Assembly: GCA_964621215.1 (NCBI GenBank)
Contig: CAZULF010000003.1
Location: forward strand, 1 to 42,985
Direction of reading: 5' to 3'
Origin: an uncultured Legionellales bacterium
GTDB lineage: Bacteria > Pseudomonadota > Gammaproteobacteria > UBA1113
Length of the DNA: 42,985 nucleotides
The notes under the pieces were generated by a model, which had not been told where the DNA came from, made no database searches, and was given only the letters and a program-made list of their open reading frames with translations. Shown in pieces: positions 7,093 to 32,789 of this stretch; within the stretch, counting starts at the first letter, position 1, and each line of letters starts with the position of its first letter. A program made the position numbers and the translations under genes.

Positions 7093-8637
7093 TTACACGC
7101 AAAGATGTTGCGTTCTTTCAGCTAAGATTGATTTCACTTCTTCATCAACCGTATGATGGGTTTTGAAGAATGCCAACCCGCTGTTTTTCACTCGGACACA
7201 TTGAATAAGTCGATTACGATCTTCATGGTTAAATTTATTGTTGGTCAGATTTAATCTTCGCAGACTAGTATTTTTTTCTAAGGCTTGTTCAAAAGCATTT
7301 GCACAGCTGCCATTATCCTCACTACCCAACTGATTTTCAGAAAGGTTTAATTCTTGCAATACGCTATTGTTCATCAATAGCTTTGCGAGAGCGACTCCTC
7401 CTGTCGATCCAATTTTATTGGCATGTAAATCTAGTGATGTTAAAGCGCTATTTGTTTCTAATCCTTTAGCGAGAACCATAGCATGATCATCGTCAATATC
7501 ATTCCAATGTAGCAAGAGTGCTTGTAAAATTTTATTCGTTTCTAGTATTGTGCTAAGTAGCTGTATTTCTGCTATTTGTAACGCGCAGCTACCCAGGTCA
7601 AGCCATGTTAGTTGGGAACCTGCTTGGAGGATATTAACTATCGAAAAATCGTTCAAGCAATCAACTGTTTCTCGATGTCGACCACTAGACCAAAAACTCA
7701 CTGCAAGTGGTTGCTGCCTCTTCGATAGAGCAGTAGCAAGTAACTGCGTATTTTTGGCAGAAAAAATATTATTACCTAGATCTATTGCTTGTAAGCCCTG
7801 ATTATCTAATAAGGCTTGTGCCAAAACTCCCATATCGTTATCGTCTGACGTCATAGCATCTGAAGAAAGATCCTTAAAAAAGTTAGCTCTCAAATCTAAA
7901 AAGTTTAATGTACTATTGGTTAACAAGGATTGCGCCAAACTCCGTACTGCTTCAGAGCTAATTTTATTACCTCCAAAATGCAAAGCTTTTAGTGTTGTGT
8001 TTGTTGCCAGAGCAGCTGCAAGAGGGGTTTTATCTAATGGATAAATGCATGTTATGTTTCGCGGGCGTTCAGGGTCTTGTTGCTCCCATTTATCATCTAT
8101 TCGAAGCGATTCGAGTCGAATACTGTTGTCAGCTAAAGCTGCAGCTAGAACCTTTAGACCCTCATCAGTAAAACGATTGAATTGAAGGCTGAGATGTTTC
8201 AAGCTGTGATTTTGCTTTAACGCCTCGGCTAATGGTAGTAACCCTTCATCACCGAATTCATTATTATTGAGATTAAGGCCTTCCAGAGTTGTGTTCTTAC
8301 TCAATGCACCTGCTAATGCCCTTACGCCCACATTACCAATCTTTTGATAGCTTAGATCAAGAAAATTAATCCAGGTATTATTAGCTAAATGCGGCGCAAG
8401 AGATAGAATAAATTTATCCTCAAAGTAATCTTTAGAATAGATACCTTCTATGGACTTTATTTTTTTTTCGCCAATCATTCTACCTCGTGTATTGCGACCA
8501 GTAAGATTAAGAGGACCTTTCTCTGGATGCGTTTTGTTAGTATTACCAACTAATAATAATATATCAAAAAAACGCTCTGGCGTTTGTTGCGCTGTAGTCA
8601 TTATGTCATAGATATGATTGAGATTTATTTTAGTCAT
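7093..8637 (-). CDS. Leucine-rich repeat protein, ribonuclease-inhibitor (RI/RNI, NLR/RanGAP-like) type
   Basis: At least 11 repeats of 28-29 aa, e.g. NTTLEGLNLNNNEFGDEGLLPLAEALKQ and NSALTSLDLHANKIGSTGGVALAKLLMN. AAGGAG lies 7 nt upstream of the ATG. Confidence 0.85.
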   Translation of the reverse strand: MTKINLNHIYDIMTTAQQTPERFFDILLLVGNTNKTHPEKGPLNLTGRNTRGRMIGEKKIKSIEGIYSKDYFEDKFILSLAPHLANNTWINFLDLSYQKIGNVGVRALAGALSKNTTLEGLNLNNNEFGDEGLLPLAEALKQNHSLKHLSLQFNRFTDEGLKVLAAALADNSIRLESLRIDDKWEQQDPERPRNITCIYPLDKTPLAAALATNTTLKALHFGGNKISSEAVRSLAQSLLTNSTLNFLDLRANFFKDLSSDAMTSDDNDMGVLAQALLDNQGLQAIDLGNNIFSAKNTQLLATALSKRQQPLAVSFWSSGRHRETVDCLNDFSIVNILQAGSQLTWLDLGSCALQIAEIQLLSTILETNKILQALLLHWNDIDDDHAMVLAKGLETNSALTSLDLHANKIGSTGGVALAKLLMNNSVLQELNLSENQLGSEDNGSCANAFEQALEKNTSLRRLNLTNNKFNHEDRNRLIQCVRVKNSGLAFFKTHHTVDEEVKSILAERTQHLCV

Positions 8638-19492: not shown

Positions 19493-20860
19493 ATGGAACT
19501 TTGTACGCTTACTGCCATTTCGCCGATTGATGGCCGTTATGGCACACGACTCGCCGAATTACGCGATCTATTCAGTGAATATGCGCTGATTAAATTTCGC
19601 GTTCAAGTTGAAATTCACTGGTTAGAAATGCTCGCGTCTGTTGCAGCTATCAAAGAAGTACCGCCTCTGAGTTCTGCTGCTGCAACAGCCTTGCGTGCTA
19701 TTGTTAATGATTTTACTTTAGCGGATGCCGAGCGTGTCAAAGCCATAGAGAGCAAAACCAATCATGATGTCAAAGCGGTGGAATATTTTGTTAAAGAAAA
19801 AATGGCTGCCCATGCTGAGCTTGCTAAATTACAAGAATTTTTGCATTTTGCCTGTACTTCTGAAGATATTAATAATGTAGCTTATGCGTTAATCCTAAAA
19901 CACGCAAAAGAAAACTTTCTGCTCCCCAAAACAGCAGGCGTAATTGAGGCCATAAAAGGTTTAGCTCTTCGCTTTGCGGATCAACCGATGTTAGCGCGTA
20001 CGCATGGTCAAGCGGCTACCCCAACTACTGTGGGTAAAGAAATGGCAAACTTTGTTGCCCGATTACAGCGACAATATGAACATTTGCACAATACGGTGAT
20101 TTTAGGCAAATTCAACGGCGCTGTCGGGAACTTTAATGCGCATCATGCCGCTTATCCTGAAATTGATTGGCCGGAAGTTAGTCGTCAATTTGTTGAAAGT
20201 TTTGGCTTACAATGGAATGCGTATACCACTCAAATTGAACCGCATGATTACATCGCTGAATTATTTGCTGTGCTATGCAACTTTAATAATATTCTTGTCG
20301 ATTTTAATCGTGATGTGTGGGGATATATTTCGCTGGGTTATTTCCAACAAAAAGCGATTGCTGATGAGGTAGGCTCATCCACTATGCCACATAAAATCAA
20401 CCCTATCGATTTTGAAAATGCCGAAGGTAATTTAGGCATGGCAAATGCGTTGATGAGTTTTCTGAGCAATCAATTACTCACTTCACGCTGGCAACGTGAT
20501 TTAGTTGACTCTACTTTACTACGTAATTTAGGTGTGGCCATGGCGCATGCTTTGCTAGCTTATCAAAGTACACTCAAAGGCATTAGTAAATTAGAAATTA
20601 ATCCGGTTGTGTTGGAATATGATTTAGCGCAAGCGTGGGAAGTGTTGGCTGAACCAATCCAAACCATCATGCGCCGTTACGGCATCTCTGAACCGTATGA
20701 AAAATTAAAAGCCCTCACCCGCGGTAAACCGATCGATCAGAGCTTGCTGGAAGAGTTTGTTGATCAGTTGGCTTTACCCGATACGGTGAAAAAGCAACTT
20801 AAACAAATGACTCCTCGCAATTATGTTGGCCTAGCCGCTAAATTGGCGAAAGGGGTGTAG
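19493..20860 (+). CDS. purB: Adenylosuccinate lyase
   Basis: N-terminus MELCTLTAISPIDGRYG resembles E. coli PurB. Fumarate-lyase signature GSSTMPHKINP is present. GAGG lies 8 nt upstream of this ATG; the ORF-track TTG at 19487 is less likely. Confidence 0.95.
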   Translation: MELCTLTAISPIDGRYGTRLAELRDLFSEYALIKFRVQVEIHWLEMLASVAAIKEVPPLSSAAATALRAIVNDFTLADAERVKAIESKTNHDVKAVEYFVKEKMAAHAELAKLQEFLHFACTSEDINNVAYALILKHAKENFLLPKTAGVIEAIKGLALRFADQPMLARTHGQAATPTTVGKEMANFVARLQRQYEHLHNTVILGKFNGAVGNFNAHHAAYPEIDWPEVSRQFVESFGLQWNAYTTQIEPHDYIAELFAVLCNFNNILVDFNRDVWGYISLGYFQQKAIADEVGSSTMPHKINPIDFENAEGNLGMANALMSFLSNQLLTSRWQRDLVDSTLLRNLGVAMAHALLAYQSTLKGISKLEINPVVLEYDLAQAWEVLAEPIQTIMRRYGISEPYEKLKALTRGKPIDQSLLEEFVDQLALPDTVKKQLKQMTPRNYVGLAAKLAKGV

Positions 20861-20866
20861 ATTGGC

Positions 20867-21000
20867 AGCCTGGATGGAGCGAAGCGGAATCCGCGATAAC
20901 CGACCTTGGGGCACGAACGATCAGACCGTCGTCCCGCGCCTTGTCCGCGGGATCCAGAATACATCACGATCCCCGGATTCCGCTGCGCTCCATTCAGGCT
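20867..21000. repeat. Family A element whose loop is replaced by extra sequence including a family B half unit
   Basis: The arms are agcctggatggagcgaagcggaatccg and ccggattccgctgcgctccattcaggct. The nested unit cgtcgtcccgcgccttgtccgcgggatcc lies at 20927-20955. Confidence 0.85.
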
Positions 21001-21166
21001 ACATTATAATTTAAAACATAACAAATAAACACCCGAAAGCAAAACTAACTAGCACGTGACTTTTGAACTGGACTGTTGTATGATCCGGCCACAAATTGGG
21101 GTGCTCTAAAACTAAATCTTATAAATATCCTTCTTTTGAAATCCTCGTTTTAAAGGTTGATGTGCC

Positions 21167-22252
21167 ATGAAAGACAAATACACTGTTACATTTACAGGTC
21201 AAACTTCAGATACAGCAAAATTATCGGAGAAAGCTATTTGGATAGTAAGTATTCCTTTCGCTATGACTGAGGAAAGACTGCCCGAATATGTGGAGCAACT
21301 TCGTGCGTTTGCACATCGCATGAAAACGGCTGCGATTGCTTTTGACATACTTTTAACTGGTGAATTGAACGCCTATAATTTTCGGGCTATCGGACAATCT
21401 GAGGAAGACGCATTAAACTCTGCTATTAAATTAGAAAAAGACTGGGAAAGTAAATACTTATCTGTCATTACTGGGTTAGTAAATCAAGAAGAACAGCTCA
21501 ATTTTACGACGCTAGCCACGGATCCTATCTTTTCATCCTCATTCAAGTTCGTAAAACATTTATATGATGAAAATAATAATTTTAGCGATAAAGTGACTCC
21601 TACTGTGGGTAACCGAATAGCTCAGATGCCGCCTAAGGGAATCAAAACTAGATTCCCAGATGCACGCACTGTAAAACCTGAAATAATGCTACCATTGTTC
21701 ACAGAATATGTTTTGAAAGAGTGTGCACTCGTGTTACAGCTACGCACTATGGGATATGATAGCGTCTTTTACATGGGAAAAATAAATCCCTCGACTGAGT
21801 ACATCACAAAATTCAACCTTAATACTATTGCTGAAGATGCAGGAAATATCCATTTTAGTGATGCGCCTGTGCTAAAACCATACCATAATCCTTCGTTCAG
21901 AATACCCCCAAAAGTAACTACCAAGATAGTAACCGCCGACTCGATGATGCGTTTTTTTGAACAAGGACACTCTACACACCCCAAAAAGCCCTCAGCGCAT
22001 GGTTTGTCCCAAACATATCCAGGAGCTTTACCCGTCGAATATTGGCTGTTTAGAGCTTACTTTGATAGTAAAGAGGTATCTGAATCTTCTAAATTACAAG
22101 CTGTTCTGCAGCGTCATCCTATCTCTCCACCTCATGGATCAACCCCAGAATATGGCGATTCAACAGGTAGCCCACGTTCCCCCCAAATGGGGCCTCTAAC
22201 TCGTAGTATGTCAGTAGACGCAATAGGCCATTCTGGCCCATCCACAAAATAA
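21167..22252 (+). CDS. Hypothetical protein: N-terminal about 235 aa with cyclodipeptide-synthase-like motifs (tentative), Ser/Pro-rich C-terminal tail
   Basis: Long ORF. Hand-aligned motifs are IVSIPF (S28), AIGQSEEDALNSAIK, EYVLKE (Y181/E185) and FY202. The tail is rich in SP/TP dipeptides. Confidence 0.6.
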   Translation: MKDKYTVTFTGQTSDTAKLSEKAIWIVSIPFAMTEERLPEYVEQLRAFAHRMKTAAIAFDILLTGELNAYNFRAIGQSEEDALNSAIKLEKDWESKYLSVITGLVNQEEQLNFTTLATDPIFSSSFKFVKHLYDENNNFSDKVTPTVGNRIAQMPPKGIKTRFPDARTVKPEIMLPLFTEYVLKECALVLQLRTMGYDSVFYMGKINPSTEYITKFNLNTIAEDAGNIHFSDAPVLKPYHNPSFRIPPKVTTKIVTADSMMRFFEQGHSTHPKKPSAHGLSQTYPGALPVEYWLFRAYFDSKEVSESSKLQAVLQRHPISPPHGSTPEYGDSTGSPRSPQMGPLTRSMSVDAIGHSGPSTK

Positions 22253-22328
22253 AGTGCTACAATGGAAATAGTACATTGGTGTTAACTAGGATTTGTTAAG
22301 GACAATCTTTACTGAAAAAGGATGAAAC

Positions 22329-23921
22329 ATGGAGATTAATGCATTTTCTGATGTTAAATCACTTCGAAAAATCATCGCCCTAATGCCGGGTAATGTGTAC
22401 TGGAAAAATACAAAAGGCGAATATCAAGGGTGTAATCTCAATCAACTTAAAGTTGCAGGCCTCGACTCAATACAAGATATTTTAGGTAAAACCGATTATG
22501 ATTTATACAGCTCCGATATTGCTTGTTTAGTACAGGCTGCCGATAGAGCTGTGATGGAATCGGGTATAGAAAAAGAATTTGAAGAAATTGGTGTGGATGC
22601 GCAAGGCAATAAAACCATTTATCTCACGAAAAAAATCCCACTGTTTGATGATAATAGACATTGTACTGGTTTACTCGGTATTTCCATCGATATCTCCGAA
22701 AGAAAAAAACAAGAAGAGCAATTAAGAATCGCCAAAAAGCAAGCAGAAGAAGCTAATGAACTCAAAACCAAATTCATTCAAAATATGCAACATGATGTCA
22801 GAACCCCGCTTTCTGGCGTGTATCAATATATGGAAATGTGGGCTGCGGAAGAAACTGACCCTGAAAAACGTTTTTGTGCTGAATTAATGCGTACCAGCAC
22901 CGGGCAACTGCTTAATATGTGCAATGAGTTGGTTGATTTTGAAAATATTGATTATCTCGAGAATGCCATTAAATTAGAACCGGTTGATACCGTTCGCTTT
23001 TTAACACGTGTGATTGATCTCAATAGAATGGCTGCGCATAGTCGTGGACTTAACATTGGCATTAATATCGATCCTGCCCTGCCTCACAGATTAAAATTAG
23101 ATAAGAGAAAATTATATCGCGTATTAGTTAACTTGGTAGGTAATTCGTTAAAATTTACCAATGAAGGTTCGATAACCTTAAATGTAAAAAAATTACATGC
23201 TGAAAACTCTTTTGTGACTATCGCTTTTGAAGTACATGATACCGGCGTGGGTATTCCGGCCGATAAAATTGATTTAATTTTTGAAAAATTTGTACGTTTA
23301 AATCCAGTAAACCAAACAAAATATAAAGGTAGTGGTTTAGGTTTATCCTATGTAAGAAAATTTGTGGATGACATGAATGGTCGACTTGAAGTAGAAAGTG
23401 AAGAAGGTAAAGGTTCTGTATTTCGTGTGATACTCTCTTTGTCTGTACCTACTGCAGATGAAATGGTGAAATATGATAGCAATGAAATTGATACGTTTAA
23501 CGAAGAGTTATTATTGCAGGAAATAATGCATACGCCTCCCTCCACTCAACACAAAACCAACAACCAAGTTCAAGAAAATATTATCGATATTAATGCTTCA
23601 CTTGAAGCGGCTGGCGATATTGAGACGGTGGAAGAAGTGCTAGCGATGTTGCGCGAATCGTTATTACATGATAAACGACAATTAGAAGCCTGTTACCAAC
23701 GAAACGATGTTGCTGAAACTCGCAAAATATTACATCGTCTTGATGGCACGCTGCGATATTGTGTTGTTCCTAAATTACAACAAGCGCGTGGTCAGTTACA
23801 TACGGCTATCAAAGAAACCGAGCAATTACAGACCAACACAGCCCTGTATAATAATTTTTATAATGAAATTGAACACTTTCTGTTGGCTTATGAGAAATTG
23901 AAAATCGAAACTCCTGCGTAG
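22329..23921 (+). CDS. Soluble PAS-domain sensor histidine kinase with C-terminal HPt-like domain and no receiver
   Basis: N-terminal PAS-like domain, coiled linker, H-box QHDVRTPLSG (H155), N-box LVNLVGNSLKF, G-boxes HDTGVGI and GSGLGLS, and an HPt-like LHRLDG (H469). No TM segment. Confidence 0.85.
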   Translation: MEINAFSDVKSLRKIIALMPGNVYWKNTKGEYQGCNLNQLKVAGLDSIQDILGKTDYDLYSSDIACLVQAADRAVMESGIEKEFEEIGVDAQGNKTIYLTKKIPLFDDNRHCTGLLGISIDISERKKQEEQLRIAKKQAEEANELKTKFIQNMQHDVRTPLSGVYQYMEMWAAEETDPEKRFCAELMRTSTGQLLNMCNELVDFENIDYLENAIKLEPVDTVRFLTRVIDLNRMAAHSRGLNIGINIDPALPHRLKLDKRKLYRVLVNLVGNSLKFTNEGSITLNVKKLHAENSFVTIAFEVHDTGVGIPADKIDLIFEKFVRLNPVNQTKYKGSGLGLSYVRKFVDDMNGRLEVESEEGKGSVFRVILSLSVPTADEMVKYDSNEIDTFNEELLLQEIMHTPPSTQHKTNNQVQENIIDINASLEAAGDIETVEEVLAMLRESLLHDKRQLEACYQRNDVAETRKILHRLDGTLRYCVVPKLQQARGQLHTAIKETEQLQTNTALYNNFYNEIEHFLLAYEKLKIETPA

Positions 23922-23991: not shown

Positions 23992-24948
23992 ATGCAAATA
24001 GGATTTAGGAATCATATGAGTAACTCGTTACGACAACGGTTAGTGCAATCTCTAACCAATTGGCTGATGAAGGAACGTCCTTACACTGGAATGCAGTTAT
24101 CCGATTTTGATCGCTTACGGTATGAAATCCGTCCTTGCGATGTATTATTGGTGGAAGGCCAAAGTCGCGTCAGTGATGTTATCCGAATTATCTCCCAAAG
24201 CCCCTGGACTCATTCCATGCTTTATATCGGCCGTTTACACGACATTGAAAACCCATTATTGCGCCAACGCATTCGTGAAGTTTATCAAGGTGATGAGGGC
24301 GAACAACTCGTCATAGAAAGTATGCTCGGCAAAGATACCGTAGTGACTCCTCTCTCGCGTTACAAACATATACACATGCGCATCTGTCGCCCAAAAGGCA
24401 TATCTCGAGAAGATGCACAACGGGTGATTGGTTATACCATCGGACGTTTGGGTTTACGATATGGCGTGCGACAACTACTCGATCTTGCACGCTTCATGTT
24501 TCCTTGGAGCGTGTTACCACGTCGTTGGCGTTCCACCTTATTTCGTCACAATGCTGGCGAACCTACGCGACAAATTTGCTCATCACTCATAGCTGAAGCC
24601 TTTAGTTCCGTGCATTTCCCGATTTTACCTATCCTGACAAAAACCGATGAGTCCGGATTGCAACTCGTTCCGCGCAATCCACGTTTATTTACGCCCAGTG
24701 ATTTTGACTACTCACCTTTTTTTGAAATTATCAAATATCCCTTTTTTGGTTTATCTGAAGAAGGTATGTATCGCAATCTTCCGTGGGCTAAAGAAGGCGA
24801 ATACAGCAATGATGATGGCAGCACAATTAATTTGAATGAACCACAGAGGTCAGTTCCTACAACATCTTCAGAACCTGACGCAGAAACTGTACCAAGTGGT
24901 ACAACGGAAAAAACCAAACACGGCTGGTTTAAGCGTAATAAGAAATAA
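23992..24948 (+). CDS. Permuted papain-like (NlpC/P60 superfamily, YiiX-like) putative hydrolase
   Basis: DVLLVEGQSRVSDVIRIISQSPWTHSMLYIG followed later by QICSSLIAEAF (His before Cys, as in YiiX-type permuted enzymes). This is motif-level only. Confidence 0.55.
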   Translation: MQIGFRNHMSNSLRQRLVQSLTNWLMKERPYTGMQLSDFDRLRYEIRPCDVLLVEGQSRVSDVIRIISQSPWTHSMLYIGRLHDIENPLLRQRIREVYQGDEGEQLVIESMLGKDTVVTPLSRYKHIHMRICRPKGISREDAQRVIGYTIGRLGLRYGVRQLLDLARFMFPWSVLPRRWRSTLFRHNAGEPTRQICSSLIAEAFSSVHFPILPILTKTDESGLQLVPRNPRLFTPSDFDYSPFFEIIKYPFFGLSEEGMYRNLPWAKEGEYSNDDGSTINLNEPQRSVPTTSSEPDAETVPSGTTEKTKHGWFKRNKK

Positions 24949-26527: not shown

Positions 26528-27346
26528 ATGGATAATATCAACAATTCACCCGTTTCATTACAATACACGAATATCATTCAGGAAATTTGTCGTCCGCTAT
26601 TTGAAAATACGCGGATAAAACATTTTTCTCATTGTGTCCTTAATGAAAATAATCAACTCAGCGGGTTGTGTTCACATCCTTCTTTTACTGAGTTTTATGT
26701 GGGGAATAAGTATTATAATTTCTCCATTGAATTATTAAAATCAGTTAACTCATCACGATCTATTTTTTCAGATTTTATAAACTTAAATGGAAAAACTCTA
26801 GAGTTACACACGGATGCTGCACAATTTGGTTTTGGGCATTTCTTTACTATTGTTAAAGTCCATCATAATATTAAAGAATCTTTCCATTTCGCTGGCGCCA
26901 TTGATGACGATGAAGTTAATAACTTTTATATCCAGCATCGCGATAGCTTAGAAAATTTCATTTTATATTATAAAGATAGAGTTCAAAGCAATCCATTATT
27001 GCGACAAGTTTTCGATGAGATATGGATTGCTGACTCAGAAGAAAATGAGCACTATCTCGATTTCAACATCACGCCAAAACCAACTTTATATTTAAATACT
27101 GACAAATATGTCGTTGGCATTAACCAGGCGGTATTATCAAAACGTGAAATCGAATGCTTGTATTGGCTCACTCACGGTAAAACGCTTGAGGAGGTCGCAA
27201 GCTTATTAACTATTTCGCGTCGAACCGTAAAGGCGCACGTTGAAAACGTTAAAGCAAAATTGAAATGTGAAACCCTTTTTCAATTGGGACAAGCGTATCA
27301 AAGTTTAGAGCTTTGGCGTTTGCTGAGTAAAAATGACGTGCGTTGA
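26528..27346 (+). CDS. LuxR/GerE-family transcriptional regulator, no receiver domain (paralog 1)
   Basis: C-terminal HTH LSKREIECLYWLTHGKTLEEVASLLTISRRTVKAHVENVKAKL. The N-terminal domain of about 190 aa is of unknown type. Collinear with the ORF at 29575-30390. Confidence 0.85.
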   Translation: MDNINNSPVSLQYTNIIQEICRPLFENTRIKHFSHCVLNENNQLSGLCSHPSFTEFYVGNKYYNFSIELLKSVNSSRSIFSDFINLNGKTLELHTDAAQFGFGHFFTIVKVHHNIKESFHFAGAIDDDEVNNFYIQHRDSLENFILYYKDRVQSNPLLRQVFDEIWIADSEENEHYLDFNITPKPTLYLNTDKYVVGINQAVLSKREIECLYWLTHGKTLEEVASLLTISRRTVKAHVENVKAKLKCETLFQLGQAYQSLELWRLLSKNDVR

Positions 27347-27358
27347 TTATAGAATTAA

Positions 27359-29341
27359 TTACAATTTTGCGAACAAGTATTTTTTTTCTTCTTTATCTTT
27401 AAGTGCATAAGGAACCTTGGGGGCGGGTTCAAATAATTTTCTAAAAAAGGGAGCGCTATCTGATGCCAACTCAGGAAATGGTTTTGCCTCCGGGCCTCTA
27501 GTTAACTTGAATCTCCCTTCTAACACCTCTTCATTATGAGGATTATCGAGAACTAGACTGACAAGTGCTTTTTCTCTTGGATCTAACAAGTTACTGGCCT
27601 GCTTTAGTGATTCATAGCGAGCACCCACTATATGTGCGAATGTGCGGCATCCTTGTTTTTCACCTCGGGCGTCTGAAGCACTTACTGTCAATGGTTCTAT
27701 CTTGAAAACTTGTTGTCCACATCGAATGAGATTTAAACTTTCCTTCACTCCATAAACTGCAGCGCACGCTTGTGGCACTAATTTTAAGGCTTCACTACTA
27801 TTCAAACTCATTTCTAAATCTTCTAAGCCCATTTGTAAAAGTGGATATTTGCTTGCCGCTTCAAACATCGTCTGTACGTTCACTTTGCCGTCAAAGGACT
27901 TCGCTAAAGCTTGACCAATAAGCTTGGAAATGTATGTCATACTCCGCTCAAAATCCGCACTCACTTGTGGGTTAGCTTTAGATAGAGGAATATAAACTAT
28001 GAAGGCTTCTTTATCATTGAGAGTAGTTGGGTAGCCTTCAAAAGTCAGAAATCCCCCAATATAACTGGTTTTATCCTTCTTCGTCACATAGAGAATGCAA
28101 ATATAGCGGGGGCGTCCATGATCGCTCAATTCATTCCAAAAATAGTTTACAAATTCTTTTTCATTTTTATTTTTATCCAATTCAAATTCTTTAAACAATT
28201 TCCATAAAAAATCGACTTCTTCGCTAGTTAGTTCGTTAGCCCTTTTAACAGATACATTTAAACTATCTCCGTTATATGTTTCAAATTTGTATGCAAAACC
28301 TCCGGTTTCATTTGTCTCAGTTGGCGGAGTAATTTTTTTATACCCAGGTTTCGGTGTCAGTCTTTTTTTGATGGCTGCATTACCCTGCAAAATTCTGTTA
28401 ACACCCTCTAAATTTTTTGCTTCTTCTGGCACTTTGAATTTGCTTGGGGTTGCACGGGCTTTTAGTATGTTTATCATTTCACAAATAATCGAACTTATTA
28501 CGCTTTGTGGACCAAATATCTCACTACGAAAAACCGCTTCAGTTTCTGGAAGACTACCATCATGCGATTTAAGCAAGGGATTAGCATTGTGTAACATCAG
28601 TAACTCTAAAATTTTGGATAACTTTTCTGTTTCCTCAATTTTATTTTCTTCACATGCAAACAAAGGACACTTCTCAAAGACAAAACGTAACATGGTATAA
28701 CCATTCGAGGTAAATGAGTTGGGATCTGCTCCTTCAGCTAATAATTTCTCAACTGTATCTACTTCGTAGTTATCGATAGCCATTTCTAGAGCTTCGTTTA
28801 CAACGTTATTTTTTGTTTCTTGTACCGGCTCCTCTCTAGTTTCCCATCCTCCATCTAAAACAGCTGATTTACTTCGTTGATGAAAATTTAAGAAGTCCTC
28901 AATGAATGGTTGTTCGCGTTCTGCGGTAAAATAGGCTGCTGTAATCGTATCGATAGATCTCACGCCTATAAAAATCTGTTTCATATAGTGTAAGGCCGTT
29001 GTAGGATCAAATTGTTCAAAAGAGTAAGAACAGAACGCATTATCACGGCCTGTAAACATTTCCCTGGGCACGGAAGCATTAGGTAAGTGTTTTTTCAAAA
29101 ATCCCGTTTGCACAAACGATTTAACTCGTACTTCTAAATAAGCACCGTTGCCAATGTATGGATTACCACAAGTCAATGTAATTCTCTCTAATGGCGACGC
29201 ATCCGGGAAAATTAAAGTATGCTTAGTATATCTTTCCATACCCTGAGGAAGTGGCCTGCTACGACGACGCAAAAAAACGGTATCACCCCGATTCTCTTCT
29301 GAAACTGTTGTGATACTAAAAAAAGATTGCTGTCTAAACAT
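27359..29341 (-). CDS. Ankyrin-repeat-containing protein with large uncharacterised N- and C-terminal regions (effector-like)
   Basis: Two ankyrin-like repeats at aa 181-268 (VDTVEKLLAEGADPNSFTSNGYTMLRF..., ILELLMLHNANPLLKSHDGSLPE). The remainder has no recognisable motif. Confidence 0.75.
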   Translation of the reverse strand: MFRQQSFFSITTVSEENRGDTVFLRRRSRPLPQGMERYTKHTLIFPDASPLERITLTCGNPYIGNGAYLEVRVKSFVQTGFLKKHLPNASVPREMFTGRDNAFCSYSFEQFDPTTALHYMKQIFIGVRSIDTITAAYFTAEREQPFIEDFLNFHQRSKSAVLDGGWETREEPVQETKNNVVNEALEMAIDNYEVDTVEKLLAEGADPNSFTSNGYTMLRFVFEKCPLFACEENKIEETEKLSKILELLMLHNANPLLKSHDGSLPETEAVFRSEIFGPQSVISSIICEMINILKARATPSKFKVPEEAKNLEGVNRILQGNAAIKKRLTPKPGYKKITPPTETNETGGFAYKFETYNGDSLNVSVKRANELTSEEVDFLWKLFKEFELDKNKNEKEFVNYFWNELSDHGRPRYICILYVTKKDKTSYIGGFLTFEGYPTTLNDKEAFIVYIPLSKANPQVSADFERSMTYISKLIGQALAKSFDGKVNVQTMFEAASKYPLLQMGLEDLEMSLNSSEALKLVPQACAAVYGVKESLNLIRCGQQVFKIEPLTVSASDARGEKQGCRTFAHIVGARYESLKQASNLLDPREKALVSLVLDNPHNEEVLEGRFKLTRGPEAKPFPELASDSAPFFRKLFEPAPKVPYALKDKEEKKYLFAKL

Positions 29342-29574: not shown

Positions 29575-30390
29575 ATGAATAAACAGAGAAAACCTGAAGC
29601 ATTATTTCACGTTGACGCAATTCAAGAAATTTGCCAACCCTTATTCGACAAAACGCCGGTGACTTATTTCTCACATTGCCTTGTCACTGAAGAAAATCAA
29701 TTCGCAGGCTTATCATCTAATCCTGAGTTCAGTGAGTTATATGCTAACAAACGTTTTTATAACTTTGAAATCGAATCGGTGAGTCTGTTGAACTCTTCAC
29801 AGAGTATCTTGTCAGATCTATTGGAATTTAAGGGTAAATCTCGTGAGCTCCATGATGATGCTGCTCAGCTGGGATTTGGACATTTTTTTACGCTTATTAA
29901 AGAAAATAATGGCAGCAAAGAATGTTTCCATTTTGCTGGCGCTATTGAGAATGAAGGAGTAAATAGATTTTATAACTATCATCAAGATTGCTTAGAAAAT
30001 TTTATCCTCTATTTTAAAGATAAAGTTCAAGGTAGCGCCGCATTACGAGGCATTTTTGATGATTTATACTCGCCCGACAAAGATAAAACATCGCCTTATT
30101 TTGATATTGATATCGATAATCAGGTATCCTCGCTTTACTTTGCTGCAGATAAATATGTTCTAGGTATTAATCAACCCACCTTATCGAAACGTGAAGTAGA
30201 ATGTTTATATTGGTTAACTCAAGGTAAAACACTGGAAGAAGCTGCGATCATATTATCTATCTCACGTCGAACAGTGAAAGCTCACATTGAAAATGTCAAA
30301 GAAAAACTTCAATGCAACACCTTATTTCAACTTGGTGAAGCTTATCACCGATTACAACTCTGGCGATTATTTAGAAGGCGCGGATTATGA
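29575..30390 (+). CDS. LuxR/GerE-family transcriptional regulator, no receiver domain (paralog 2)
   Basis: HTH LSKREVECLYWLTQGKTLEEAAIILSISRRTVKAHIENVKEKL. The N-terminal domain is collinear with paralog 1 (IQEICxPLF, HFFT, FHFAGAI, LENFILY). Confidence 0.85.
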   Translation: MNKQRKPEALFHVDAIQEICQPLFDKTPVTYFSHCLVTEENQFAGLSSNPEFSELYANKRFYNFEIESVSLLNSSQSILSDLLEFKGKSRELHDDAAQLGFGHFFTLIKENNGSKECFHFAGAIENEGVNRFYNYHQDCLENFILYFKDKVQGSAALRGIFDDLYSPDKDKTSPYFDIDIDNQVSSLYFAADKYVLGINQPTLSKREVECLYWLTQGKTLEEAAIILSISRRTVKAHIENVKEKLQCNTLFQLGEAYHRLQLWRLFRRRGL

Positions 30391-30655: not shown

Positions 30656-31411
30656 CTAAGAAAATTGAAAATCAACTCGAGAGGTAATTCCTTCCTCTAT
30701 TCCCGTAGCGCTAAATAATCGATTAATTTCTTGATTGATATAGTCTTCATCCATCTGCTGTAAGACGACATTAAACGTACCAAGCAACGCTTTACAACCT
30801 TTCTCGGTAATTGGTTGAGTGATTGCAGGAATAGAATAAGGTTGCAACTTTTCAGCCAATCTCAGATGAATACGCGTTTTCGTTAATAAAAAACGATCCA
30901 AAATAAGTTTAATTGCAGAGGGGTTATAGTCTAACAAAGAATGATAAGGCGATGCTTCTGACATGACGATTGTTCGAAGCTTGTCAGTAATATTAGGCTC
31001 ATCCTCTTGCAAAGCTAAATATAGCGCGTGATACACGGTAACGAGTGCTAAATGGCCTGGCGAATAATAAATGCGGGCGTAACGTTCAGCATAATCTAAA
31101 GCTAAAGTATAATTACTACTCTCTAAATTAAGCTGATATAACTCATTTAATACATAAGGATAGGGGTTTGGTTCGTCTCTCAAATATATTTGTTCCGCAT
31201 TGCTTTGAATATTATTATTAAATGCCAGCGAATGACAGGCTTGTAAAAATAGTGCTTTAGTGTTCGGTTGGGTAATTTGAGGAATAAATTGAAAGAAATA
31301 TCCGCATAAAACTATCCATTGCGTATCAGAAAGTCGTTTGGCAATGTCATTATCCGGATCAGCTAATTTTGCCAATGGCAGTTGTTTCGCTTGTTCAAGC
31401 AGTTCGTCCAT
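30656..31411 (-). CDS. Hypothetical all-helical protein (251 aa)
   Basis: ORF with AAGGA 8 nt upstream of the ATG, 64 bp downstream of the 437-aa ORF on the same strand. No recognisable motif. Confidence 0.6.
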   Translation of the reverse strand: MDELLEQAKQLPLAKLADPDNDIAKRLSDTQWIVLCGYFFQFIPQITQPNTKALFLQACHSLAFNNNIQSNAEQIYLRDEPNPYPYVLNELYQLNLESSNYTLALDYAERYARIYYSPGHLALVTVYHALYLALQEDEPNITDKLRTIVMSEASPYHSLLDYNPSAIKLILDRFLLTKTRIHLRLAEKLQPYSIPAITQPITEKGCKALLGTFNVVLQQMDEDYINQEINRLFSATGIEEGITSRVDFQFS

Positions 31412-31475: not shown

Positions 31476-32789
31476 TTAACTAACAGTCACTCCCGGTTTA
31501 GCCATCAACCAGTCCGCATCTTCCTCTGTGATATTATCCCCATGCATAATGCTACAGTTTCCGTCTAAATACTCTTCTGCAATCGGTTGCTTTTTGAATA
31601 CCGGTGCCGGTGGGAAAAAATTAAATGCACGTGTTGGATTAGGTTTACTTTTCTTTGTAATATCTTGAACCGGTTCTTGATCCTGATGCACGCTTTTTTC
31701 TTGTACTGGCAAATGCGTGTCTTTTTTTCGTTCCTGTAATAAATGAGCCGCATTAATTATTTTCTGCATAAACTCAACGACCTTATCTTTCGCTGGTTTC
31801 TGCGGATAAGGCGGTTGATAAACTAAAGTAAAGCTAATGTTGTCATTAATTGTGACACTGTAAACTAGTTTTTCAACAACAGGATAAGTATATCCTGCTT
31901 TAAGAATGGGGTAGGCCTGGATGCGCACACTGTTACCGTTATTTAATAAATCTGCACAGGCATCTTCTACTGTTTGTTTCATCCACATATTCATGCTCTC
32001 TTCCATTAAGAGCATATTGTTTGGCTGCTGGCCTTTTTTACCTCGAAAACGAAATGCACAGATATGACCCCAGTGATAATTTTTATTGAGATCTAAACCT
32101 TCTAAGGCTGCTGCTTGGTTGGGCCCTATGCCCATAACTTGATTTTGATTGGGCTTGCGTTGATGATTATCTTTCTTTAATTGCCGTTTGATATTGGTGA
32201 CATCTTTCTTGGTTAAAGTGACATCTTGTAAATACGGATTGTTGGGATCGTAATCCGCACGTTGCGTTACCGGTGAACTAAGGCTGACTTGTGCGCCAAG
32301 TTCACTTTCTAAATCCTGAACAATTTGACTCTCTCCCTCCAGTGGGGTGTAAACATCAACGACACCCAATCGGGCATGCAAACTATATTCGCTTCCGCCA
32401 GGAGAAACTGGTGTCCCATCCTCTCTTCGTGTTAAAACTGGGTTGTTATCAATAGAAGCCAGAGCAGGCTCTAAGATTGCTTTACTGTTTGGTGATAAAT
32501 TTTTTCCGGGCACAATCACCGTTTTGCGTTGATGGTCTACGCCAAACGACGGATGTTTTTTAATTTTGAGTTTTTCTGGCGTTTCCGGGATAGGGGCTGC
32601 CATAAATGGTTTATTGGGAGAAAGCGATGAACGAGCCGGATTATCGTGCCAAACTACATCAGGCGGAATAGTAACCATAGGCAAGTCCTCTCGCTCTTCA
32701 ATGTGAGTATTGATGGAAGGCAGAGGACAGGATAAATCCTGTATAATCAAATAGTTAGAATGTATTTTTGTCTTTGCTTCGGGTTTCAT
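31476..32789 (-). CDS. Hypothetical protein (437 aa) with a weak His-Me-finger/nuclease-like motif
   Basis: Long ORF. The first ATG has no Shine-Dalgarno sequence, while Met38 (32678) has GAGAGGA upstream. Motif NYHWGH...NNMLLMEESMNMWMKQTVE lies at aa 237-276. The C-terminus has an EEDAD acidic patch. Confidence 0.6.
   Translation of the reverse strand: MKPEAKTKIHSNYLIIQDLSCPLPSINTHIEEREDLPMVTIPPDVVWHDNPARSSLSPNKPFMAAPIPETPEKLKIKKHPSFGVDHQRKTVIVPGKNLSPNSKAILEPALASIDNNPVLTRREDGTPVSPGGSEYSLHARLGVVDVYTPLEGESQIVQDLESELGAQVSLSSPVTQRADYDPNNPYLQDVTLTKKDVTNIKRQLKKDNHQRKPNQNQVMGIGPNQAAALEGLDLNKNYHWGHICAFRFRGKKGQQPNNMLLMEESMNMWMKQTVEDACADLLNNGNSVRIQAYPILKAGYTYPVVEKLVYSVTINDNISFTLVYQPPYPQKPAKDKVVEFMQKIINAAHLLQERKKDTHLPVQEKSVHQDQEPVQDITKKSKPNPTRAFNFFPPAPVFKKQPIAEEYLDGNCSIMHGDNITEEDADWLMAKPGVTVS

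What the first reader, a model, noticed from the sequence alone, without database searches (positions are those of the whole stretch)
21167..22252. Orphan 361-aa protein with cyclodipeptide-synthase-like catalytic motifs and a Ser/Pro-rich tail
By hand alignment, the N-terminal 235 aa or so carries the hallmark CDPS residues in the right order and spacing.
- S28 in AIWIVSIPFAM aligns with the catalytic Ser loop (G-I-S-P-F-N-S in Bacillus YvmC, G-I-S-A-G-N-S in AlbC).
- FRAIGQSEEDALNSAIK (aa 72-88) resembles the A-L-G-x-x-x-x-x-A-x-x-x-V-x-K helix.
- TEYVLKE (Y181, E185) matches EYVIAE / NYVLAE, with the catalytic Tyr and Glu spaced Y-x3-E.
- A Tyr (FY202MG) follows 17 residues after the Glu, against 20 in AlbC and YvmC.
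- The distance from the AIG motif to the EYV motif is about 105 residues, against about 101 in YvmC as I remember that sequence.

Deviations are real. The Gly before the Ser and Asn40 are absent, and the residue after Y202 is Met, so it fits neither the NYH nor the XYP subfamily signature.

The last 125 aa or so have no CDPS counterpart. They are rich in SP/TP dipeptides (SPPHGSTPEYGDSTGSPRSPQ), like eukaryotic proline-directed phosphosites.

CDPSs divert aminoacyl-tRNAs to make diketopiperazines and are known in Legionellales (Rickettsiella grylli, Fluoribacter dumoffii). A divergent, tail-bearing member next to signalling genes rather than tailoring enzymes would be new. The reference sequences were recalled from memory, not searched.
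Basis: partly seen in the sequence, partly recalled or inferred. Interest (0 to 1): 0.75.

Follow-up and report, generated by a model that had tools for sequence, protein, structure and literature searches.

The report
Divergent cyclodipeptide synthase paired with sensor kinase
This unannotated gene encodes a divergent relative of the enzymes that turn two charged tRNAs into a cyclic dipeptide, and it almost always sits beside a small-molecule-sensing kinase, so the pair may be a self-contained chemical signalling system.

Summary

- **Homology.** The protein alone barely touches CDPS profiles: Pfam gives nothing and TIGR04539 gives 21 bits against a cutoff of 45. An exhaustive scan found 17 distant metagenomic relatives. 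Their profile hits solved XYP-type cyclodipeptide synthases at E 1e-16 to 1e-22 (hhalign probability 99.7%).
- **Fold.** An AlphaFold model (pLDDT about 90 over aa 11-220) matches CDPS structures in its top 42 Foldseek hits, followed by TyrRS.
- **Catalytic residues.** S28, Y181, E185 and Y202 align with the catalytic Ser, Tyr, Glu and Tyr. Residue 203 is Met, so the protein fits neither the NYH nor the XYP signature. The core family forms its own clade.
- **Tail.** It is disordered. The SP/TP count is no more than composition predicts (P=0.44). It does carry a conserved "FF[DN]S" motif.
- **New finding.** In 14 of 15 genomic contexts, a CDPS gene of this family or of a related Coxiellaceae group lies next to a cytoplasmic PAS histidine kinase. 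In the 11 new-family pairs, the PAS domain's closest solved relative is VqmA, the receptor of the pyrazinol autoinducer DPO, and it keeps VqmA's polar pocket residues.
- **Best reading.** A cyclodipeptide synthase-receptor signalling pair. Enzyme activity, product and ligand are all untested.

The parts
21056..21084 (+). Sigma-70-like promoter candidate upstream of the ORF (GTGACT-17-TATGAT). Weak evidence.
   Evidence: 9 of 12 matches. The number of such sites in the region is no higher than in shuffles, so this is only a candidate.
21167..22252 (+). Whole ORF, 361 aa: a divergent cyclodipeptide-synthase-family protein with a C-terminal extension.
21167..21886 (+). CDPS catalytic domain (aa 1-240) with a class-I aaRS-like Rossmann fold. 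It includes the N-terminal strand (aa 7-9) and the C-terminal strand (aa 236-240) that correspond to beta2 and beta7 of XYP CDPSs.
   Evidence: pLDDT 85-95 over aa 11-220; the top 42 Foldseek hits are CDPSs; hhalign covers aa 38-213; beta2/beta7 architecture of XYP CDPSs.
21248..21250 (+). Codon of S28, the candidate acyl-enzyme nucleophile, at the C-terminal end of strand 20-27.
   Evidence: same column as the catalytic Ser of Fdum, Nbra, Ssap, L009, L018 and L019; the Nbra S-to-A mutant identifies the catalytic Ser; within 2 residues of the Rgry 'GIS'; secondary structure. Ser is present in 16 of 18 members.
21707..21721 (+). Y181-x3-E185, the substrate-anchoring Tyr and the catalytic-base Glu.
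   Evidence: aligned to the invariant Y and E of solved CDPSs. E185 is invariant and Y181 is Y or F across the family.
21770..21775 (+). Y202-M203. Y202 is the fourth catalytic residue. M203 occupies the His (NYH) or Pro (XYP) signature position.
21887..22252 (+). C-terminal extension (aa 241-361): Ser/Pro-rich, basic (pI 9.6) and mostly disordered.
   Evidence: composition; pLDDT below 50 for 239-261, 264-288 and 322-358. [ST]P count not above chance.
21950..21964 (+). First tail 'FF' motif, RFFEQ (aa 262-266).
   Evidence: A similar 'TFFKEQ' occurs in the tails of the L018 and L019 CDPSs.
22034..22114 (+). Conserved tail element (aa 290-316): two predicted helices around AYFDS (aa 297-301), which is the family motif a-F-F-[DN]-S-x3-[IL]-[SP]-x3-K.
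   Evidence: alignment; helices 290-300 and 306-316 at pLDDT 66-76. [FY]F present in 15 of 21 tails against 5.3 expected; none of 20,000 simulations reached 15.
22253..22328 (+). 76-nt spacer between the ORF and the kinase gene. No terminator-like site was found, so the two genes are probably co-transcribed.
   Evidence: no terminator-like site in 20700-22500; coordinates and sequence.
22329..23921 (+). Partner gene: a soluble sensor histidine kinase of 530 aa (PAS_4 - HisKA - HATPase_c - Hpt). It has no room for a transmembrane segment and has no receiver domain.
   Evidence: domains; orthologous PAS subtype in all 11 partner kinases of the new family.
22338..22727 (+). PAS sensor domain of the kinase (aa 4-133). 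Its closest solved relative is the DPO-binding PAS of VqmA. K102 (22632-22634) aligns with the ligand-contacting K101 of VqmA.
   Evidence: VqmA is the top hit (E 7.5e-7 with the profile); pocket mapping. K102 is invariant in 13 PAS domains; roles of the VqmA residues.

Best explanation
The ORF encodes a member of a rare, previously unannotated clade of the cyclodipeptide synthase (CDPS) family. Together with the kinase gene 76 nt downstream, it forms a conserved two-gene signalling module.

**Proposed mechanism**
1. The N-terminal 240 aa fold like a CDPS. As in AlbC, Rgry-CDPS and other CDPSs, they bind an aminoacyl-tRNA, transfer its aminoacyl group to S28, and condense it with a second aminoacyl-tRNA. 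Y181 and E185 anchor the substrate, and E185 acts as the base. The dipeptidyl-enzyme then cyclises with the help of Y202 and releases a 2,5-diketopiperazine.
2. That small, membrane-permeant product, or a close derivative, is bound by the cytoplasmic VqmA-like PAS domain of the adjacent histidine kinase.
3. The kinase changes its autophosphorylation and relays the signal through its Hpt domain to a response regulator.

The pair would therefore be a signal synthase plus cognate receptor. In logic it resembles CqsA/CqsS or LqsA/LqsS. In chemistry it resembles DPO/VqmA. Its output depends on the pool of charged tRNA.

The disordered tail carries a conserved FF[DN]S motif that probably docks a partner, and the kinase is the obvious candidate.

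**Shown here:** the ORF, family homology, fold, catalytic residues, the distinct signature, conserved synteny, PAS subtype conservation, and the correspondence with the VqmA pocket.

**Inferred:** enzymatic activity, the identity of the product, that the product is the PAS ligand, and the role of the tail.

**How the confidence breaks down:** the protein is a CDPS-family homolog with the catalytic set intact, about 0.9. It is functionally coupled to the kinase, about 0.85. It makes a cyclodipeptide, about 0.6. The product is the kinase's ligand, about 0.35-0.4. The overall figure of 0.5 is for the explanation as a whole.
For: **Homology and fold**
- Family profile against PDB: 5OCD 5.5e-22 and 5MLP 9e-21, and 18 of the 20 listed hits are CDPSs.
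- Core-family profile without canonical outliers: 5MLP 2.2e-16, and all 7 hits are CDPSs.
- hhalign: probability 99.7%, E 2.1e-25.
- AF2 model with pLDDT about 90 over the domain. Its top 42 Foldseek hits are CDPSs, with TM 0.79-0.82 to 5OCD.

**Catalytic residues**
- Y181, E185 and Y202 fall on invariant CDPS columns.
- S28 falls in the catalytic Ser column, at the end of the first Rossmann strand.
- The 6-residue insertion after the Ser has a precedent in Cglo-CDPS.
- Family conservation: Ser in 16 of 18, Glu in 18 of 18, Tyr181 as Y or F, Tyr202 as Y (15) or H (3).

**Synteny**
- A PAS histidine kinase lies adjacent, or one gene away, in 14 of 15 contexts with enough flank.
- The orientations vary: co-directional, divergent and convergent. 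The flanking genes are different each time.
- In L018 and L019 the CDPS gene sits between a response regulator and the kinase, overlapping the kinase gene by 4 nt.
- This PAS type occurs nowhere else in the window, L002 or L003.
- The one exception, P0006, is also the core-family member with Asn in place of the catalytic Ser.

**PAS domain**
- All 11 partner kinases of the new family share one PAS subtype (135-205 bits).
- With the PAS profile, the only PDB hits at E<=0.01 are VqmA (7.5e-7) and the BvgS PAS.
- Eight of the ten VqmA pocket positions tested by mutagenesis map to columns invariant in the first seven kinases. By the stricter count of seven (G117 lacks a residue in one kinase), the enrichment has P=5.5e-6.
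- The polar residues are retained: K23/K26, D71/D72, D85/E86 and K101/K102.

**Other**
- No terminator lies between the two genes.
- The pair forms a low-GC stretch: about 0.36-0.39 against 0.45 in the flanks.
Against: - No biochemical data exist for any member.
- The single sequence fails the curated Pfam and NCBIfam thresholds. No core-family member passes either.
- The query lacks two residues that are invariant in the five solved XYP-type fragments. D and R of 'DxLHRH' correspond to G65 and A69. In the family each is present in only 9 of 18 members. Their role is unknown to me, and their loss could impair activity.
- The placement of S28 depends on a gapped region. One HMM alignment puts it 2 residues from the Rgry Ser, and another puts it 6-7 residues upstream of the Fdum Ser. 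I could not superpose coordinates.
- The N-domain is acidic (pI 5.7), and I could not compare the tRNA-binding strands quantitatively.
- The PAS-to-VqmA similarity is modest (32 bits), and the aromatic stacking residues of VqmA (F67, F99) are not conserved.
- Adjacency shows functional coupling but does not show its direction. The kinase could regulate the synthase rather than sense its product.
- A mirror-tree test of co-evolution was uninformative (r=0.41; 929 of 5040 permutations reached it).
Confidence: 0.5

Rival explanations
1. The protein is an active CDPS, but the kinase is its regulator and not the receptor of its product. The PAS domain senses some other cue (redox, a metabolite or a host signal) and controls transcription of the synthase gene through a response regulator. 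The diketopiperazine acts elsewhere, for example on the eukaryotic host or on competitors.
For: Biosynthetic genes often sit next to their regulators. Response regulators accompany the pair in several loci: L004, L012, L018 and L019. CDPSs in intracellular bacteria have been proposed to make dipeptides that manipulate host cells (PMC2922099). The window carries eukaryote-like genes, namely a protein kinase, LRR proteins and a HEAT-repeat protein.
Against: The PAS subtype is conserved specifically with the synthase, while the kinase cores and output domains vary. That is what a shared ligand would predict. The closest solved PAS is the receptor of a related N-heterocyclic autoinducer, with its polar pocket residues retained. 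No tailoring, export or resistance genes recur in the contexts.
Confidence: 0.25
2. The CDPS-fold protein works mainly as a protein partner of the kinase. It binds charged tRNA, with or without turnover, and reports amino-acid sufficiency to the kinase by direct contact. The conserved FF[DN]S tail motif would be the docking site. No diffusible product would be needed.
For: The family has a conserved short motif in an otherwise divergent, disordered tail. Similar 'FF' motifs occur in the tails of the L018 and L019 CDPSs, which also have kinase partners. Translational coupling by a 4-nt overlap in L018 and L019 is typical of proteins that form complexes. The query lacks the XYP-invariant D and R residues.
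Against: The full catalytic Ser/Tyr/Glu/Tyr set is retained in most members, which argues for catalysis rather than binding alone. The PAS pocket positions, rather than a surface patch, are the most conserved part of the sensor. No interaction data exist.
Confidence: 0.1
3. The protein is a translocated effector, for example a type IVB secretion substrate, that acts in the eukaryotic host. It would use host aminoacyl-tRNAs there. Its Ser/Pro-rich tail would serve as a secretion signal and/or be phosphorylated by host proline-directed kinases.
For: The window has eukaryote-like genes. The relatives come from Coxiellaceae-like and gammaproteobacterial MAGs. Most family members end in polar Ser/Thr/Asn/Gln-rich, disordered C-termini, which fits loosely what is known of such secretion signals. 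That last point rests on my own knowledge and was not tested.
Against: [ST]P dipeptides are not enriched beyond composition (P=0.44) and homologs do not share them. The near-universal linkage to a bacterial cytoplasmic kinase (14 of 15 contexts) is not expected for an effector. I had no secretion-signal predictor or secretion-system genes to test this with.
Confidence: 0.07
4. The resemblance to CDPS is superficial or a chance result, and the ORF is an unrelated hypothetical protein.
For: Pfam finds nothing for the single sequence. The single-sequence PDB hit is only E 0.23-0.44.
Against: Profile, profile-profile and structural comparisons all converge on CDPS with high significance, and the catalytic residues are in register.
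Confidence: 0.01

Closest known systems
XYP-subfamily cyclodipeptide synthases of Legionellales: Fdum-CDPS (Fluoribacter dumoffii, PDB 5OCD) and Rgry-CDPS (Rickettsiella grylli, PDB 5MLP)
   Same: These are the best sequence-profile and structural matches. They share the Rossmann-type fold, the catalytic Ser, Tyr-x3-Glu and Tyr in register, the 17-residue Glu-to-Tyr spacing, a similar 'Y-x-G-K-x-N' segment after the last Tyr (Rgry YPGKCN against query YMGKIN), and the N- and C-terminal strands that pair as beta2 and beta7.
   Different: Pro203 of the XYP signature is replaced by Met, or by another mostly aliphatic residue in the family. There is an insertion of 6 or more residues after the catalytic Ser. 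In the query, the XYP-invariant Asp and Arg of 'DxLHRH' are Gly and Ala. There is a tail of about 120 aa carrying an FF[DN]S motif. The core family forms a separate clade and falls below the curated CDPS thresholds.
Coxiellaceae-type XYP CDPSs with a C-terminal extension (found here: L009 from an uncultured Coxiellaceae MAG, plus L018, L019 and L020)
   Same: They are 24-30% identical to the query over the best-matching segment of the core. They carry a C-terminal extension of about 100 aa, with 'TFFKEQ' in L018 and L019. A PAS-HisKA-HATPase kinase lies directly downstream of the CDPS gene in L009, L018 and L019 (L020 is too short to tell), overlapping it by 4 nt in L018 and L019.
   Different: They keep the canonical 'YP' signature and the short Ser loop ('LMTAIS-CGN'). 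Their kinase PAS domains match the new family's PAS profile only weakly (16-20 bits). L018 and L019 also have a response regulator upstream.
[quoted passage not shown]
   Same: They are Legionellales-associated CDPSs with insertions and a C-terminal extension.
   Different: I could not obtain those sequences, so identity with either group found here was not tested. They are classed as XYP, whereas the query lacks the Pro. The paper does not mention kinases at all (0 occurrences of 'kinase').
NYH-subfamily CDPSs (AlbC, YvmC, Rv2275)
   Same: They share the fold and the catalytic Ser, Tyr, Glu and Tyr (4Q24/3OQV at about 1e-6, and the YvmC and Rv2275 structures also hit).
   Different: The query has no Asn at Ser+3 (it has F31) and no His after Tyr202. 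It is much more distant from these than from the XYP enzymes.
DPO-VqmA quorum sensing of Vibrio cholerae (PDB 6IDE, 6KJU, 6UGL)
   Same: VqmA has the closest solved PAS domain to the partner kinase's sensor. It is a cytoplasmic receptor of a small N-heterocycle derived from amino acids. Its polar pocket residues K23, D71, D85 and K101 correspond to invariant K26, D72, E86 and K102.
   Different: VqmA couples its PAS domain to a LuxR-type DNA-binding domain and not to a kinase. Its ligand depends on threonine dehydrogenase and is not made by a CDPS. The stacking residues F67 and F99 are Val and Thr here, which implies a different and possibly larger ligand.
Autoinducer synthase plus sensor kinase gene pairs such as CqsA/CqsS (Vibrio) and LqsA/LqsS (Legionella). 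This comparison rests on my own knowledge.
   Same: The logic is the same: a signal synthase is encoded next to its cognate histidine kinase.
   Different: Those synthases are PLP-dependent acyl-CoA transferases that make alpha-hydroxyketones, and their kinases are membrane-bound. Here the synthase is aminoacyl-tRNA-dependent and the kinase is soluble, with a PAS sensor.

Membership tests
Cyclodipeptide synthase (CDPS) family | Class-I aminoacyl-tRNA-synthetase-like Rossmann fold | tested here: met
   The AF2 model has pLDDT 85-95 over aa 11-220. Its top 42 Foldseek hits against PDB are CDPSs (5OCD E 2.8e-10, TM 0.79-0.82 normalised to the target), followed by TyrRS.
Cyclodipeptide synthase (CDPS) family | Significant sequence homology to known CDPSs | tested here: met
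   Family profile: 5OCD 5.5e-22 and 5MLP 9e-21. Core-family profile: 2.2e-16, with CDPSs as the only hits. hhalign: probability 99.7%, E 2.1e-25.
Cyclodipeptide synthase (CDPS) family | Passes the curated family thresholds (Pfam PF16715 gathering score; NCBIfam TIGR04539 cutoff of 45 bits) | tested here: not met
   Pfam gives no hit even at E<=10. TIGR04539 gives 21.3 bits. No core-family member passes. This is a matter of model sensitivity and not evidence against homology.
Cyclodipeptide synthase (CDPS) family | Catalytic Ser nucleophile (AlbC S37, Rgry S29) at the end of the first Rossmann strand | tested here: met
   S28 is in the Ser column in global alignments. The strand 20-27, S28, loop, helix 35-55 arrangement appears in the model. 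The catalytic Ser is pinned by the Nbra S-to-A mutant chain. Caveat: local HMM alignments place S28 2 residues or 6-7 residues away, because of the insertion after the Ser. No coordinate superposition was possible.
Cyclodipeptide synthase (CDPS) family | Tyr-x3-Glu (AlbC Y178/E182) | tested here: met
   Y181 and E185 align to the invariant Tyr and Glu. E185 is invariant in the family.
Cyclodipeptide synthase (CDPS) family | Second catalytic Tyr (AlbC Y202) | tested here: met
   Y202 aligns to the invariant Tyr of 'YP'. In the family it is Tyr in 15 of 18 members and His in 3.
Cyclodipeptide synthase (CDPS) family | Uses two aminoacyl-tRNAs and releases a cyclodipeptide | not testable with these tools
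   This needs expression and LC-MS, or in-vitro assays with aminoacyl-tRNAs.
XYP subfamily of CDPSs | Pro immediately after the second catalytic Tyr (X40-Y202-P203) | tested here: not met
   M203 is at the Pro position. In the family, Pro occurs only in the outliers P0015 and P0017.
XYP subfamily of CDPSs | Basic beta2 and beta7 strands that bind the tRNA acceptor stem | tested here: inconclusive
   Strands at aa 7-9 and 236-240 are present in the model. A conserved K-Y-[KR] follows beta7 in the family. However, the N-domain as a whole is acidic (pI 5.7), and I had no full-length reference sequences for a quantitative comparison.
NYH subfamily of CDPSs | Asn at Ser+3 and His after the second catalytic Tyr (N40, Y202, H203) | tested here: not met
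   F31 is at Ser+3 and M203 follows Y202.
VqmA-type autoinducer receptors (for the partner kinase's sensor domain) | PAS ligand-binding domain with a Lys that hydrogen-bonds the ligand's ring carbonyl (K101) and an aromatic stacking pair (F67, F99), fused to a LuxR-type HTH domain | tested here: not met
   The PAS similarity is real, but the partner is not a family member. VqmA is the top PDB hit at 7.5e-7. K102 is aligned to K101 and is invariant. However, F67 and F99 correspond to Val and Thr, and the output is a histidine kinase rather than an HTH domain. The sensor resembles VqmA's PAS but is not a VqmA.

The most novel reading that the evidence does not exclude
The module is the first genetically linked cyclodipeptide synthase-receptor pair. 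An aminoacyl-tRNA-dependent synthase makes a diketopiperazine, and a dedicated cytoplasmic VqmA-like PAS histidine kinase reads it. That would be a new class of bacterial autoinducer or second-messenger system. Because the synthase's substrates are charged tRNAs, its signal strength would report the cell's translational and amino-acid status. The system would be found in Legionellales-like intracellular bacteria.
Probability: 0.35. Interest if true: 0.85.

Novelty: new variant of a known kind. Interest (0 to 1): 0.72.

Why it matters
Diketopiperazines have long been proposed as bacterial signals. The case has been weak because producers and receptors were never genetically tied together. Reported receptors are orphan LuxR proteins, as in Shewanella baltica.

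Here a CDPS gene and a ligand-type PAS kinase travel together across two deeply divergent CDPS clades, in many unrelated genomic neighbourhoods. That gives a concrete, testable synthase-receptor hypothesis: express one gene, identify the product, and titrate it onto the other gene's PAS domain.

The finding also adds a third signature class (Tyr followed by a mostly aliphatic residue) to the NYH/XYP division of CDPSs. It shows that current Pfam and NCBIfam models miss a whole clade, whose members are all annotated as hypothetical.

If the organism is an intracellular Legionellales-like bacterium, as the context suggests, a signal derived from charged tRNA could bear on how such bacteria couple nutrient status to differentiation.

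Tried and rejected
- **Word-indexed protein searches** with the single sequence, the full family alignment and the N-domain alignment. They returned only the query itself plus P0015 or P0016. They added no members, names or taxonomy.
- **First genome-contig scan** with the single protein: nothing. The 5-sequence alignment gave one locus.
- **tblastn against plasmids:** no match.
- **Organism identification** through clusters of housekeeping proteins gave no names. The taxon stays inferred and not shown.
- **Mirror-tree (Mantel) test** of synthase against PAS distances: r=0.41, with 929 of 5040 permutations at least as high. It is uninformative because the synthase distances are saturated.
- **Tail as proline-directed phosphosites:** rejected. 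There are 4 [ST]P against 3.3 expected (P=0.44), and homologs do not share them.
- **The window's two LuxR/GerE paralogs as VqmA-like PAS receptors:** not supported. They show no similarity to the kinase PAS, and PDB hits cover only the HTH domain.
- **An RNA leader or riboswitch upstream of the ORF:** Rfam finds only two tRNAs elsewhere in the window.
No model coordinates were accessible, so the active-site geometry could not be measured.
- **P0017** looked like a family member but is a near-canonical CDPS (44.3 bits to TIGR04539, 'CGLSLSNPNY' Ser loop, 'YP'). I excluded it from the core profile to avoid circularity.
- **Literature database:** three calls timed out and were repeated later.
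Full report
**Observation**

The motifs are at the stated residues. The N-terminus matches that of its homologs, so the start codon is sound. The gene follows purB after a 306-nt spacer, and a 530-aa histidine kinase gene starts 76 nt after its stop codon. No terminator-like site lies between the two genes.

**Is it a CDPS?**

The protein on its own is almost invisible to standard annotation.
- Pfam gives nothing at E<=10.
- NCBIfam TIGR04539 (tRNA-dependent cyclodipeptide synthase) gives 21.3 bits against a cutoff of 45.
- The best PDB sequence hit is 5MLP at E 0.23-0.44. 5MLP is the Rickettsiella grylli XYP-type CDPS, whose catalytic residues are S29, Y181 and E185.

The word-indexed search found only the protein itself. 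The exhaustive HMMER scan of 1.84 billion representatives found 17 relatives, with E 1.7e-24 to 9e-4 and 23-34% identity, matching mainly aa 4-220. All come from metagenomes or MAGs and none is named.

Profiles built from these relatives give clear results.
- The family profile hits solved CDPSs at 5.5e-22 (Fluoribacter dumoffii, 5OCD), 9e-21 (5MLP) and about 1e-14 (Cglo, Nbra). Of the 20 listed hits, 18 are CDPSs.
- One relative, P0017, is a near-canonical CDPS (44.3 bits to TIGR04539). I therefore repeated the search with a core-family N-domain profile that excludes it. The result was 5MLP 2.2e-16 and 5OCD 2.4e-15, with CDPSs as the only hits.
- Profile-profile comparison with five solved CDPS fragments gives probability 99.7%, E 2.1e-25.

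An AlphaFold2 model built on the family alignment has pLDDT 85-95 over aa 11-220. Its top 42 Foldseek hits in the PDB are all CDPSs (TM 0.79-0.82 normalised to the target 5OCD), followed by tyrosyl-tRNA synthetases.

**Catalytic residues**

The four residues described as almost strictly conserved in active CDPSs are S37, Y178, E182 and Y202 in AlbC numbering.
- hhalign and MAFFT put query Y181, E185 and Y202 on the invariant Tyr, Glu and Tyr of the solved enzymes. The Glu-to-Tyr spacing of 17 is the XYP spacing.
- The catalytic Ser of XYP enzymes is fixed by the Nbra Ser-to-Ala mutant chain, 'LLVAVGA' against 'LLVSVGA'.
- Global alignments place query S28 in that column, together with the Ser of Fdum, Nbra, Ssap and the Coxiellaceae-type CDPSs.
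- The model has strand 20-27, then S28, a loop, and helix 35-55, which is the expected topology.

The family has an insertion of 6 or more residues directly after the Ser. Cglo-CDPS has a six-residue insertion at the same place. This gapped region makes local HMM alignments drift by 2 to 7 residues. I could not superpose coordinates, so S28 is likely the nucleophile but this is not proven.

Across the 18 sequences, Ser is present in 16, Glu in 18, Tyr181 is Y or F, and Tyr202 is Y in 15 and H in 3.

**How it differs from known CDPSs**

- Residue 203 is Met, at the position of His in NYH enzymes and Pro in XYP enzymes. In the core family it is M, A, I, L, T, Q or N, and Pro occurs only in the outliers P0015 and P0017.
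- Ser+3 is Phe and not Asn.
- The query and its closest relatives also lack the Asp and Arg of the 'DxLHRH' segment, which are invariant in the solved XYP-type fragments. These positions are G65 and A69 in the query. I do not know what these residues do.
- In a rough NJ tree the core family is a clade separate from all canonical CDPSs.
- No core member passes the curated thresholds. That explains why all are annotated as hypothetical.

**The tail**

Residues 241-361 have no counterpart in the solved CDPSs. They are Ser/Pro-rich and basic and mostly disordered in the model. The SP/TP dipeptides do not exceed chance (4 observed, 3.3 expected, P=0.44), and homologs do not share them. The phosphosite reading therefore has no support.

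What is conserved is a short motif, a-F-F-[DN]-S-x3-[IL]-[SP]-x3-K. In the query it is AYFDS at 297-301, within predicted helices 290-316. A second motif, RFFEQ, lies at 262-266. At least one [FY]F occurs in 15 of 21 tails against 5.3 expected, and none of 20,000 simulations reached 15. This pattern is what a docking motif in a disordered linker looks like. Its partner is unknown.

**The main new result: a conserved kinase partner**

I looked up the contigs that encode the relatives. A histidine kinase with an N-terminal PAS_4 domain lies next to the CDPS-like gene in these contexts:
- the window;
- L003, L004, L006/7, L010 and L016/17, downstream on the same strand;
- L008, downstream with one unknown ORF between;
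- L002, L013 and L014, upstream and divergent;
- L012, convergent, with a receiver protein between.

The only exception is L011. Its protein, P0006, is also the core-family member with Asn in place of the catalytic Ser.

The metagenome scan added L018 and L019. Like L009 from an uncultured Coxiellaceae MAG, these encode canonical 'YP'-type CDPSs with a C-terminal extension. Each has a PAS-HisKA-HATPase kinase directly downstream. In L018 and L019 the two genes overlap by 4 nt, and a response regulator lies upstream.

The tally is 14 of 15 contexts with enough flanking sequence. The flanking genes differ every time: purB, dsbA/ahpC, dksA/prmC, gyrB, corA, cytochrome bd and mobile-element genes. 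This PAS type occurs nowhere else in the 43-kb window or in the 22-kb and 13-kb loci L002 and L003. In the window the pair forms a low-GC stretch, about 0.36-0.39 against 0.45 in the flanks.

**The sensor domain**

The 11 partner kinases of the new family share one PAS subtype, at 135-205 bits to the profile. This includes four kinases that were not used to build the profile. Their kinase cores and outputs differ: Hpt in the window, receiver domains elsewhere, and different DHp types. The window kinase starts directly with the PAS domain and has no room for a membrane segment, so it senses something in the cytoplasm.

Against the PDB, the PAS profile's only hits at E<=0.01 are VqmA (7.5e-7; 6UGL, 6IDE, 6KJU) and the BvgS PAS. 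VqmA is the cytoplasmic receptor of the Vibrio cholerae autoinducer 3,5-dimethylpyrazin-2-ol. Its ligand is held by stacking on F67 and F99 and by a hydrogen bond from K101 to the ring carbonyl.

Ten VqmA pocket residues were tested by mutagenesis in that work. Eight of them map to columns that are invariant in the first seven kinases (K26, D72, E86, G88, Y98, T100, K102, G117). By the stricter count of seven (G117 lacks a residue in one kinase), the enrichment has P=5.5e-6, given 15 invariant columns out of 132.
- The polar contacts are kept: K23/K26, D71/D72, D85/E86 and K101/K102.
- The bulky residues are replaced by small ones: F99/T100, H87/G88 and F116/G117. F67 also corresponds to a small but variable residue (V68).

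This fits a pocket at the same site, with similar polar chemistry, for a different and perhaps larger ligand. K102 is invariant across all 13 PAS domains examined.

**Interpretation**

The best-supported reading is an active, divergent CDPS whose diketopiperazine product is sensed by the adjacent PAS kinase, that is, a synthase-receptor pair. Homology, fold, catalytic residues, synteny and the pocket correspondence are shown here. Activity, product identity and the ligand-receptor link are inferred.

The main rival is that the kinase regulates the synthase in response to another cue. Adjacency alone cannot separate these two readings, and the co-evolution test was uninformative. Less likely rivals are a non-catalytic adaptor that reports charged tRNA directly to the kinase, and a translocated effector.

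**Literature**

DKPs are discussed as quorum-sensing signals with orphan LuxR receptors. CDPSs in intracellular bacteria have been suggested to make host-directed dipeptides. A Legionellaceae CDPS group with insertions and an extra C-terminal domain is known. Full-text searches combining 'cyclodipeptide synthase' with 'histidine kinase', 'quorum sensing' or 'sensor kinase' found no description of a CDPS-kinase module.

**Organism**

The taxon is not established. The indications are indirect:
- the closest CDPSs come from Legionellales;
- the relatives come from Coxiellaceae and 'Gammaproteobacteria bacterium' MAGs;
- the window mixes housekeeping genes with eukaryote-like kinase, LRR and HEAT proteins.

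**Verdict**

The finding is a new variant of a known enzyme family. Its conserved kinase partner, apparently undescribed, makes an old question about DKP signalling directly testable.

Noticed in passing
window 20867-21000: A 27-nt inverted repeat (93% complementary, arms 80 nt apart; AGCCTGGATGGAGCGAAGCGGAATCCG / CGGATTCCGCTGCGCTCCATTCAGGCT) lies in the purB-ORF spacer, with a second GC-rich palindrome between the arms. It looks like a small MITE- or REP-type element. It sits at the edge of the low-GC stretch that holds the CDPS-kinase pair.
   Followed up: partly
window 26528-27346 (+) and 29575-30390 (+), flanking 27359-29341 (-): Two paralogous proteins of about 271 aa (55% identical) have a C-terminal LuxR/GerE HTH domain and an unassigned 200-aa N-terminal domain. 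They flank a 660-aa ORF with no Pfam match. PDB hits (CviR, TraR, RhlR, SdiA) cover only the HTH domain, and there is no similarity to the kinase PAS. They are orphan LuxR-type regulators 2.6-6.5 kb from the module. Orphan LuxRs are the reported DKP receptors in Shewanella.
   Followed up: partly
window 5431-7011 (-), 7093-8637 (-), 37721-39775 (+): These are eukaryote-like genes: a protein with a Pkinase domain, an LRR_6/RNI-type leucine-rich-repeat protein, and a protein with a weak HEAT-repeat match. Several large ORFs have no Pfam match (30656-31411, 31476-32789, 36222-37442). This suggests a host-associated bacterium.
   Followed up: no
window 22329-23921: The partner kinase has an Hpt domain but no receiver domain (PAS-HisKA-HATPase-Hpt), which is an unusual layout. 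None of the window ORFs scanned with Pfam had a receiver domain. The next gene on the same strand (23992-24948) weakly matches the permuted papain-like amidase family C92.
   Followed up: no
L011 1252-2376 (P0006): This is the only family member without a kinase neighbour. It is also the core-family member with Asn in place of the catalytic Ser. It sits between a HEPN/nucleotidyltransferase gene and a TetR gene on a 4-kb contig. It may be a decaying or repurposed copy.
   Followed up: partly
L018 6287-8002: Directly downstream of the CDPS-kinase pair lies a 571-aa protein that fuses a xylose-isomerase-like TIM barrel (AP_endonuc_2) to a LuxS (S-ribosylhomocysteinase, AI-2 synthase) domain. A 3-dehydroquinate-synthase-like gene follows it.
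   Followed up: no
L009 352-2454 and 2485-4098: Two large coiled-coil-rich ORFs (700 and 537 aa) lie upstream of the Coxiellaceae CDPS. They end in nearly the same C-terminal peptide (...SSQVQEKPEGS[AS]HFFRP), which might be a shared targeting or secretion signal. Like the CDPS tails, it contains an 'FF'.
   Followed up: no
L008 2663-3508 and 394-1377: In this locus an unknown 281-aa ORF with no Pfam match sits between the CDPS-like gene and the PAS kinase. A 327-aa ORF with a weak receiver-domain match lies upstream.
   Followed up: no
L002 7795-9750 and L013 5765-7807: The partner kinases of the two most divergent family members, P0015 and P0012, carry two tandem copies of the family-specific PAS domain plus a receiver domain.
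   Followed up: partly
window 2716-2789 and 2820-2893 (+): Two tRNA genes lie 30 nt apart. They are the only Rfam matches in the window. Their anticodons were not determined.
   Followed up: no
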